From Eledone cirrhosa (taxonomy: Eukaryota), in the NCBI GenBank assembly GCA_964016885.1, contig OZ024747.1:85746001-85810000 (forward strand): a stretch of 64,000 bases of DNA, in the 5' to 3' direction. Made by a program: the position numbers and the translations under genes. The notes below the pieces were generated by a model. The model saw only the letters and a list, made by a program, of their open reading frames with translations, did not search any database and was not told the DNA's origin. Shown in pieces: positions 47,145 to 48,243 of the stretch. How positions within the stretch are numbered: position 1 is the stretch's first letter; each line of letters opens with the position of its first letter.

Positions 47145-48243
47145 ATATAAATATATATATATGCATATGTATATATATATGTATGTGTATATATATATAT
47201 ATATATATATTATATATATATATATATATATGCATATCTATATATATATATATGTATATATATATATGCATGTATATATATATATATATATATATATATA
47301 TATATATATATATATATATATATATATATATATATGTGTGTGTATATATATATATATATATATATATATATATATATATATATATATATATATACACACA
47401 CATATATATGTATATACATATGTATATACATATATATATATGTATATATATATATATATATATATATATATATGCATATATATATATATGTGTGTATATA
47501 TATATATATGTGTATATATATATATATATATATATATGCATATATATATATATATATACACACATATATATATATATATACACATATATATATATACACA
47601 TATATATATATATACACATATATATATATATATACACACATATATACATATATATATACACACACACACACATATATATATATATATATACACACATATA
47701 TATATATATACATACATATATATATATATATACACATATACATACATATATACACATATATATATATATATATATATATATACACACACACATATATATA
47801 CATATATATACATGTATATATATATATATATATATATATATGTATATATATATATGTATATACATACATATATATATTATATATATATATATATATATAT
47901 ATATATATATATATATATATACATACATATATATATATATATATATATATATACAAACATATATATATATATATATATATATACAAACATATATATATAT
48001 ATATATATATATATATATACAAACATATATAAAGAGATTCCTGATGATTTCTAATGAATGAAACAGTTCTAGTCCTGTAGAATCTCATCTATATTAATAC
48101 AAACATATATATATATATATATATATATATATATATATACATACATATATATATATATATATATATATATATATATATATATATATATATATATATATAT
48201 ATATATATATATATATATATATATATATATATATATATATATA
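47145..48243. repeat. Long (TA)n/(CATA)n tract, one of many dinucleotide and tetranucleotide microsatellites in the window
   Basis: Direct inspection. Confidence 0.95.
48034..48086 (+). ncRNA. Type I hammerhead ribozyme motif isolated in a (TA)n tract
   Basis: gagattc-CTGATGA-t ttc taat gaa t-GAA-ACAG ttctagtc CTGT-A|gaatctc: 7-bp stem I, 4-bp stem III, GUA site. Confidence 0.85.

What the first reader, a model, noticed from the sequence alone, without database searches (positions are those of the whole stretch)
48034..48086. A bare 53-nt hammerhead stranded in a microsatellite
The only complex sequence in a ~1.1-kb (TA)n tract is essentially the ribozyme itself, flanked on both sides by atacaaacatatat. 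It has a 7-bp stem I, a true 4-bp stem III that could fold as a monomer, a GUA site and a U-U mismatch at the base of stem II. A relative at 55339 has the same stem III but a different stem I (gaagtcatt, with the partner aatga partly retained), hinting at covariation. It may be a very small mobile unit.
Basis: partly seen in the sequence, partly recalled or inferred. Interest (0 to 1): 0.7.

Follow-up and report, generated by a model that had tools for sequence, protein, structure and literature searches.

The report
Capped front stub of Penelope retrotransposon
This tiny hammerhead motif is an exact 63-base piece of an abundant Penelope-like jumping gene (over 31,000 related copies in this genome), and an extra G in front of it suggests it is likely a short DNA copy that ran off the capped start of the element's uncut RNA, not a self-spreading mini-element.

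Summary
The hammerhead motif is real: type I, one descriptor hit in the window, none in 200 shuffles. It is not a free-standing unit. Its 23-mer has 31,535 exact copies. The U-U mismatch, 4-bp stem III and (TA)n target are published Hydra traits; the 8-nt loop III is not in the published table. The insert starts 30 nt behind the pLTR TATA box with a G the element does not encode: 1,798 of 2,198 non-C copies have G there, against 6 of 100 one base upstream. It ends at the nearer of two preferred 3' ends, inside a 15-bp direct repeat. Best reading: a short cDNA primed just behind the ribozyme and run off the capped 5' end of uncleaved RNA. The seventh stem I pair comes from that G. The 55339 'partner' is an inverted arm and that copy's core is broken, though stem I does covary across subfamilies. 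Cleavage and transcription start are untested. Known kind of debris, with a useful mechanistic footprint.

The parts
47144..48243 (.). (TA)n microsatellite, the target of insertion
   Evidence: TRF period 2, 549 copies
48017..48031 (+). left copy of a 15-bp direct repeat, probable target-site duplication
   Evidence: same unit also at 47952 and 47982
48032..48033 (+). 2-nt filler (AA) matching neither element nor repeat
48034..48034 (+). G not encoded by the parent element; likely copied from the RNA cap; supplies the 7th pair of stem I
   Evidence: parent has C; 1,798 of 2,198 non-C copies have G
48035..48097 (+). positions +1 to +63 of the pLTR segment of a Hydra-clade Penelope-like element
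   Evidence: exact match twice in L184, the locus of the intact 713-aa ORF
48034..48086 (+). type I hammerhead motif: stem I 48034-40/48080-86, core 48041-47 and 48060-63, U-U 48048/48059, stem II 48049-51/48056-58, stem III 48063-66/48075-78, loop III 48067-74 with a 4-nt palindrome, predicted cut after 48079
48087..48097 (+). pLTR sequence behind the ribozyme, up to the nearer preferred 3' end
48097..48111 (+). right copy of the 15-bp direct repeat (first base shared with the element)
55343..55392 (+). direct arm of an older sister-subfamily copy; core lacks C3 and the 5' strand of stem I
   Evidence: 96% over 50 nt to L230
55243..55345 (-). inverted long-tail arm of the same insertion; its end supplies the 'aatga'
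   Evidence: 77% over 107 nt to the L230 tail, E 3e-15; local score 74 against a shuffle maximum of 44

Best explanation
The insert is an exact copy of the first 63 bases of the hammerhead-bearing repeat segment of a Hydra-clade Penelope-like retrotransposon, and it was likely made when the element's enzyme nicked a (TA)n tract, began reverse transcription just behind the ribozyme, and ran off the likely capped 5' end of an uncleaved transcript, leaving one extra G. Shown: identity with the pLTRs of an intact element, the copy number, the clustered ends and the G excess. Inferred: transcription starts at the first base of stem I, 30 nt behind a TATA box; the G is copied from the cap; the two preferred 3' ends are two RT start sites; mirror-image pairs arise when both sites are used at one DNA break and solo stubs when one is. 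The stub lacks the TATA box and ORF, so it is likely a dead end and the ribozyme a passenger. If it cuts at all, it likely needs a second copy or the element's protein.
For: Exact match to both pLTRs of L184, whose ORF has the Hydra motifs (PMC8557442 section 11) and folds closest to telomerase RT. 5' ends: 29 of 53 subfamily copies begin at positions 0 to +9. Extra G: 1,798 of 2,198; control one base upstream 6 G in the first 100 of 1,130. In a second subfamily, where stem I fold-back would give T and the TA target only T or A, 44 of 72 TA-flanked loci have an extra G. TATA box 30 nt before +1 in both subfamilies. An untemplated 5' G is read as a cap mark in L1 (PMC9341517 passages). 3' ends: 29 of 53 at +52 to +69, 21 at +100 to +139, 3 into the ORF; 20 of 22 inverted pairs join one long and one short arm, as expected from two internal RT start sites (PMC11167929). 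Uncleaved template: only 83 of 6,614 long-tail copies have a base other than A before the predicted cut, and 15 of 30 inspected are point mutants with the ribozyme still upstream. 12 of 22 TA-flanked extra-G loci on C1 are bare like this one.
Against: No transcript was seen, so start site and cap are inferred from DNA only. 28 of the 72 TA-flanked loci of the second subfamily lack the extra G. Many 5' ends fall at +2 to +9 rather than +1 (23 against 4). In inverted pairs the G is often also explained by microhomology with the other arm. Some G copies fit a template switch inside stem I (L123, L230). D. virilis Penelope has a TATA-less internal promoter (PMC2377424 passages), so a TATA start is not general. 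The direct repeat is partly low-complexity, and convincing duplications were rare among the 22 sister stubs. The position samples come mostly from contig C1. Pfam gave no RT family for the ORF.
Confidence: 0.8

Rival explanations
1. Same parent element, but the stub is an ordinary 5'-truncated copy: RT stalls at the ribozyme helix, and the G comes from terminal-transferase activity or from cDNA folding back on stem I.
For: 5' ends spread over +1 to +9; some junctions fit a switch within stem I (L123, L230; 8 of 30 loci); other non-templated bases occur at junctions.
Against: Stalling should occur on entering stem I from its 3' side, not after it is copied. Fold-back predicts T in the second subfamily, yet 44 of 72 have G. 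The endpoint keeps a 30-nt distance from the TATA box in two subfamilies.
Confidence: 0.13
2. A minimal non-autonomous element (retrozyme-like): bare ribozyme stubs are transcribed from flanking DNA, cut or circularise, and are copied again by the Penelope enzyme.
For: Bare copies recur (12 on C1); the extra G raises the predicted pairing of stem I from 0.02 to 0.83; animal retrozymes derive from pLTRs (bioRxiv 10.64898/2026.07.22.740005, abstract and part 1 of 5).
Against: No tandem units here; no promoter in the stub; exact identity with the autonomous pLTR; flanks differ between stubs; copies starting at the cut site are rare; bare copies are 2 of 100.
Confidence: 0.05
3. The 5' end marks a splice acceptor (the pLTR has a T-rich run ending in CAG there), as in D. 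virilis Penelope, where an intron ends at helix I.
For: Sequence context; PMC4209133 maps an intron end to helix I.
Against: Copies keep the AG and add a G before it; no shared upstream exon among 30 extra-G loci; the second subfamily has no AG at that place.
Confidence: 0.02

Closest known systems
Hydra clade of C-terminal EN+ Penelope-like elements (Craig et al. 2021, PMC8557442; passages, section 11, supplement passages and part 2 of 59 read)
   Same: Single ORF with RW[K/R], DKT, CxCx5C linker, C-terminal GIY-YIG with CxxC and CxH; (TA)n target; type I hammerhead in the pLTR with 4-bp stem III and, in most Hydra magnipapillata families, U opposite U at the base of stem II (File S2); inverted arms and optional tail.
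   Different: Loop III is 8 nt (1-3 nt in the Hydra rows of File S2); stem II is only 3 bp; tail about 70 nt (30-40 in their Fig. 2 legend); long microsatellite-rich 3' region makes ribozyme-to-ribozyme distance about 4.8-6.3 kb in six loci against elements generally under 3 kb; the 20-mer of this ribozyme has 0 hits in the text held of that supplement, so it looks like a further family.
[quoted passage not shown]
   Same: Type I motif in pLTRs; most copies dispersed as single motifs 'probably related to truncated PLEs'; opposite-strand pairs; palindromic loop III; low activity expected.
   Different: Here stem III is a full 4 bp; G10.1-C11.1 is replaced by U-U; the solo copies are mapped to fixed ends with an extra G, which the parts read do not describe.
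Poseidon element of Anolis carolinensis, PAc (Frangieh et al. 2024, PMC11167929; parts 1-2 of 4 read)
   Same: AT-rich target, two internal RT start sites that define the tail, uncleaved RNA as the main template, protein-assisted ribozyme.
   Different: Other clade; their start sites lie inside the ORF, here the two ends lie in the 5' leader before the ATG; the parts read do not treat the 5' end or a cap-derived G.
Metazoan non-LTR retrozymes (Li, Clavereau and Pollet 2026, bioRxiv 10.64898/2026.07.22.740005, part 1 of 5 read; PMC7229834 search listing only)
   Same: Non-coding, type I hammerhead, derived from pLTRs.
   Different: Retrozymes are tandem units with at least two ribozymes; this is a single 63-nt copy with no sign of cut-and-circularise replication.

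Membership tests
Type I hammerhead ribozyme | Core CUGANGA, GAAA and NUH joined by stems I-III with ends in stem I | tested here: met
   (1 hit; 0 in 200 shuffles)
Type I hammerhead ribozyme | G10.1-C11.1 pair at the base of stem II | tested here: not met
   U-U in the window and in 180 of 200 copies tallied (the sample was partly selected on this motif); the same variant is listed among canonical Hydra hammerheads
Type I hammerhead ribozyme | Compensatory changes in the stems | tested here: met
   Distal stem I pairs differ between subfamilies and stay paired: AGA/UCU (69 copies), GGC/GCC (18), GAC/GUC (5), the last two with a one-base bulge, among 200 copies. Stems II, III and the three proximal stem I pairs show no change on both sides in 8 rows
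Type I hammerhead ribozyme | Match to an Rfam hammerhead model | tested here: not met
   none
Type I hammerhead ribozyme | Self-cleavage | not testable with these tools
   needs an assay; folding predicts a weak monomer
EN+ Penelope-like element | Telomerase-like RT and C-terminal GIY-YIG in one ORF | tested here: met
   713-aa ORF; model pLDDT 89.8, 8 best PDB folds are telomerase RT; GIY-YIG E 2e-4 on a piece of L031, just under Pfam's cut-off, E 0.13 on the whole protein
EN+ Penelope-like element | pLTRs with hammerhead, inverted 5' arms, optional tail | tested here: met
Hydra clade | RWK, DKT, CxCx5C, CxxC and CxH motifs | tested here: met
   RWR38 (R for K), DKT116, C566-C574, C666-C669, C694-H696; resembles the published Hydra alignment by eye
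Hydra clade | No CCHH motif between GIY and YIG | tested here: inconclusive
   No CxxC there, but two cysteines nine residues apart are present
Hydra clade | Insertion into (TA)n | tested here: met
Hydra clade | Placement in an RT phylogeny with named Hydra elements | not tested
Non-LTR retrozyme | Tandem units with two or more hammerheads | tested here: not met
   single copy; next relative 7.3 kb away and broken
Non-LTR retrozyme | Circular RNA | not testable with these tools
   no RNA data were available

The most novel reading that the evidence does not exclude
Dispersed solo hammerheads and head-to-head stubs of Penelope-like elements are not random truncations but complete run-off cDNAs, akin to strong-stop DNA: transcription starts on the first base of the ribozyme, the enzyme primes from two fixed sites behind it (one per strand of a break), copies uncut RNA to the cap and records the cap as a G. 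Genome sequence alone would then map the promoter, cap and both RT start sites of any such family, and the ribozyme, with an invariant 8-nt palindromic loop III, would act mainly as a 5'-end switch or dimer contact rather than as the maker of the template's ends.
Probability: 0.6. Interest if true: 0.5.

Novelty: new member of a known kind. Interest (0 to 1): 0.3.

Why it matters
As an object it is ordinary retrotransposon debris. Its value is as a footprint: how Penelope-like elements (sister group of telomerase RT) start and finish copying, and what their hammerheads do, is still open. A young family with intact ORFs and thousands of end-defined stubs gives testable predictions: start site at +1, cap-dependent G, two RT start sites about 70 nt apart used once each per break, uncut RNA as template. 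I did not find the cap-G reading for these elements in the papers searched ('untemplated G' and 'non-templated guanine' occur 0 times in the nine papers listed), but subscription papers are missing, Lunse et al. (PMC5785218) was not held, bioRxiv supplements were closed, and earlier notes of this scan already report the same idea in other genomes.

Tried and rejected
Rfam: no hammerhead family matched. No RNA holder listed for the pLTR; this is no evidence on expression. Contigs of four coded runs laid on the pLTR hold the segment and its variants but cannot show starts, ends or cleavage; depth was not used as a copy number. Pfam, NCBIfam and PDB sequence searches found no RT family for the ORF; the fold search did. 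The Atlas gave no result. Covariation from the 55339 copy: rejected, the apparent partner strand is an inverted arm. Pair counting on alignment A2 showed no covariation in the ten pairs named, since the variable distal pairs are offset by a bulge and were left out; alignment A1 held one wrong stretch (L069) and was dropped. Splice-acceptor reading of the 5' end: rejected (see rivals). Cleavage-site origin of copies: 15 of 30 inspected loci are junctions at the cut position, 8 of them explained by stem I homology with the other arm; neighbouring positions were not counted, so a small excess is not excluded. Target-site duplications in 22 sister stubs were mostly unreadable in pure TA. The script's long/short call for L035 is wrong (one search shows long plus short); I kept the script's count of 20 of 22. 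A look-up of earlier notes near this place and by sequence gave nothing.

Full report
Observation. A descriptor finds it once in the window and never in 200 shuffled windows. Rfam does not recognise it. Predicted folding is weak outside stem I: probability 0.05 for the hammerhead fold, 0.27-0.32 for stem III pairs, 0.12-0.17 for stem II, z -0.27.

What it belongs to. The 23-mer has 31,535 exact matches in the 3.0-Gb genome and the reversed control has none. Loci show shared sequence on both sides, and one runs into a frameshifted RT-endonuclease ORF. A protein search returned many copies with an open frame of 758 codons among 150 scored of 19,408 candidates. In one, L155/L184, a 713-aa ORF is flanked by repeats carrying the ribozyme, and window 48035-48097 matches both exactly. 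The protein has 1,406 unnamed relatives at E 1e-20 or better among 7,993 scored. Its model (pLDDT 89.8) has telomerase RTs as its eight best folds. It carries RWR, DKT, CxCx5C, CxxC and CxH, the marks given for the Hydra clade (PMC8557442 section 11). File S2 of that paper lists Hydra hammerheads with 4-bp stem III and U opposite U at the base of stem II, and File S1 gives (TA)n as their target. The 8-nt loop III is longer than any Hydra row there. It is the same in 75 of 95 copies from loci fetched by patterns that did not fix it, across subfamilies whose loop II varies. Single hammerheads from truncated elements were already noted in PMC4209133.

The ends are not random. Number the A at 48035 as +1. 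In the first 100 matches on contig C1, 53 are this subfamily. Of these, 20 extend well upstream, 1 starts at -5, 29 start at 0 to +9 and 3 at +22 to +24. Their 3' ends fall at +52 to +69 (29, two of them long tails with deletions), at +100 to +139 (21) or in the ORF (3). Two are bare like the window copy. Position +1 lies 30 nt behind TATAAATA in this subfamily and in a second one, and follows a pyrimidine. Where the base before +1 is not the encoded C (7,281 copies have C), it is G in 1,798 of 2,198. One base further upstream only 6 of the first 100 listed of 1,130 are G (counted by eye). In inverted pairs the G can often come from the other arm, so I tested copies directly behind TA. On C1, 22 distinct loci have TA, up to five bases, then G and +1; none shows an inverted arm within 200 nt, 12 are bare and 10 have the long tail. 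cDNA folding back on stem I would also give G in this subfamily, but T in the second; there 44 of 72 TA-flanked loci have an extra G, 14 T, 13 A, 1 C (counted by eye). An untemplated 5' G is read as reverse transcription of the cap in L1 (PMC9341517 passages). The window copy fits: target repeat, AA filler, G, +1 to +63, target repeat.

Template and priming. Of 22 inverted pairs, 20 join a long and a short arm by script, and 17 share loop II in both arms. This matches two internal RT start sites with the tail between them, shown in vitro for the Anolis element, where uncleaved RNA is the main template (PMC11167929). Here only 83 of 6,614 long-tail copies have a base other than A before the predicted cut. 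Half of 30 inspected are point mutants, and 8 of the 15 junctions fit stem I homology. Without the extra G, the first 70 nt of three subfamilies are predicted to fold into other structures (proximal stem I pair 0.00-0.05; 0.83 in the window copy), which could keep the ribozyme off in the nascent RNA; this is a prediction only.

The 55339 relative. It belongs to a sister subfamily (645 exact matches; 96% over 50 nt to L230) whose own 5' strand of stem I is GAC-bulge-TTC. In the window that strand and C3 are missing; the 'aatga' is the end of an inverted long arm at 55345-55243, complementary by construction. Real covariation exists: distal stem I pairs AGA/UCU, GGC/GCC and GAC/GUC in 69, 18 and 5 of 200 copies. 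Stems II and III do not covary within this genome's sample.

Mechanism. Shown: parentage, copy number, clustered ends, G excess, rarity of cut-site copies. Inferred: a full or TATA-bearing copy is transcribed from +1; the RT-endonuclease nicks (TA)n, primes at the nearer site behind the ribozyme and copies 63 nt to the cap; repair joins the cDNA end with two filler bases and duplicates 15 bp. The stub has no promoter or ORF. Confidence 0.8; that it is a piece of this element, about 0.97. Against: no RNA evidence, 28 of 72 loci without the G, many starts at +2 to +9, and a TATA-less promoter in D. virilis Penelope (PMC2377424 passages); TATA and initiator-like motifs are described in rotifer pLTRs (PMC3846280 passages). 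A review (PMC6765202 passages) states that these ribozymes cleave poorly and probably as dimers.

Novelty. A new family of a known clade and a known kind of debris. The cap run-off reading was written down before I saw earlier notes of this scan, which report the same idea in other genomes and Hydra stubs in this one; these are unchecked AI notes and not independent support. I found no paper stating it in seven searches, with the library's gaps. Interest 0.3.

Noticed in passing
window 53880-54165: Inverted pair of a different repeat, each arm with a CUGAUGA core and a distant GAAA; probably a head-to-head stub of another Penelope-like family, possibly the rearranged hammerhead of earlier notes.
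   Followed up: no
window 54280-54570: Second inverted pair with a hammerhead core, a long stem II and a minimal stem III on each strand; another pLTR family.
   Followed up: no
window 10612-10680: Degenerate relative of the same hammerhead (core and stem II kept, stem III decayed) in a TA tract.
   Followed up: partly
window 29252 and 40149: Further CUGANGA...GAAA cores with a stem II but no clear stems I and III.
   Followed up: no
window 57211-57290: Near-perfect 80-nt hairpin; similar sequence flanks loci L051, L111, L145 and L235, so likely another small repeat.
   Followed up: no
L188 and L189 (G000:C1:83.68-83.70 Mb): At least 11 head-to-tail units of about 1.08 kb, each with TATA box, hammerhead and long tail, next to an ORF end; a retrozyme-like or satellite array of this family.
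   Followed up: partly
L184 5424-7900: The region between ORF end and 3' pLTR of the intact element holds about 1.8 kb of TA/TG microsatellite; the element may carry and spread its own target repeat.
   Followed up: no
L326, L324, L330, L340: Several A-to-G changes clustered in arms of this family, a pattern that would fit RNA editing before copying.
   Followed up: no
L001, L005-L007, L013, L022, L039, L081: One old hammerhead copy amplified as part of a larger repeat with identical flanks, so not all of the 31,535 matches are independent insertions.
   Followed up: partly
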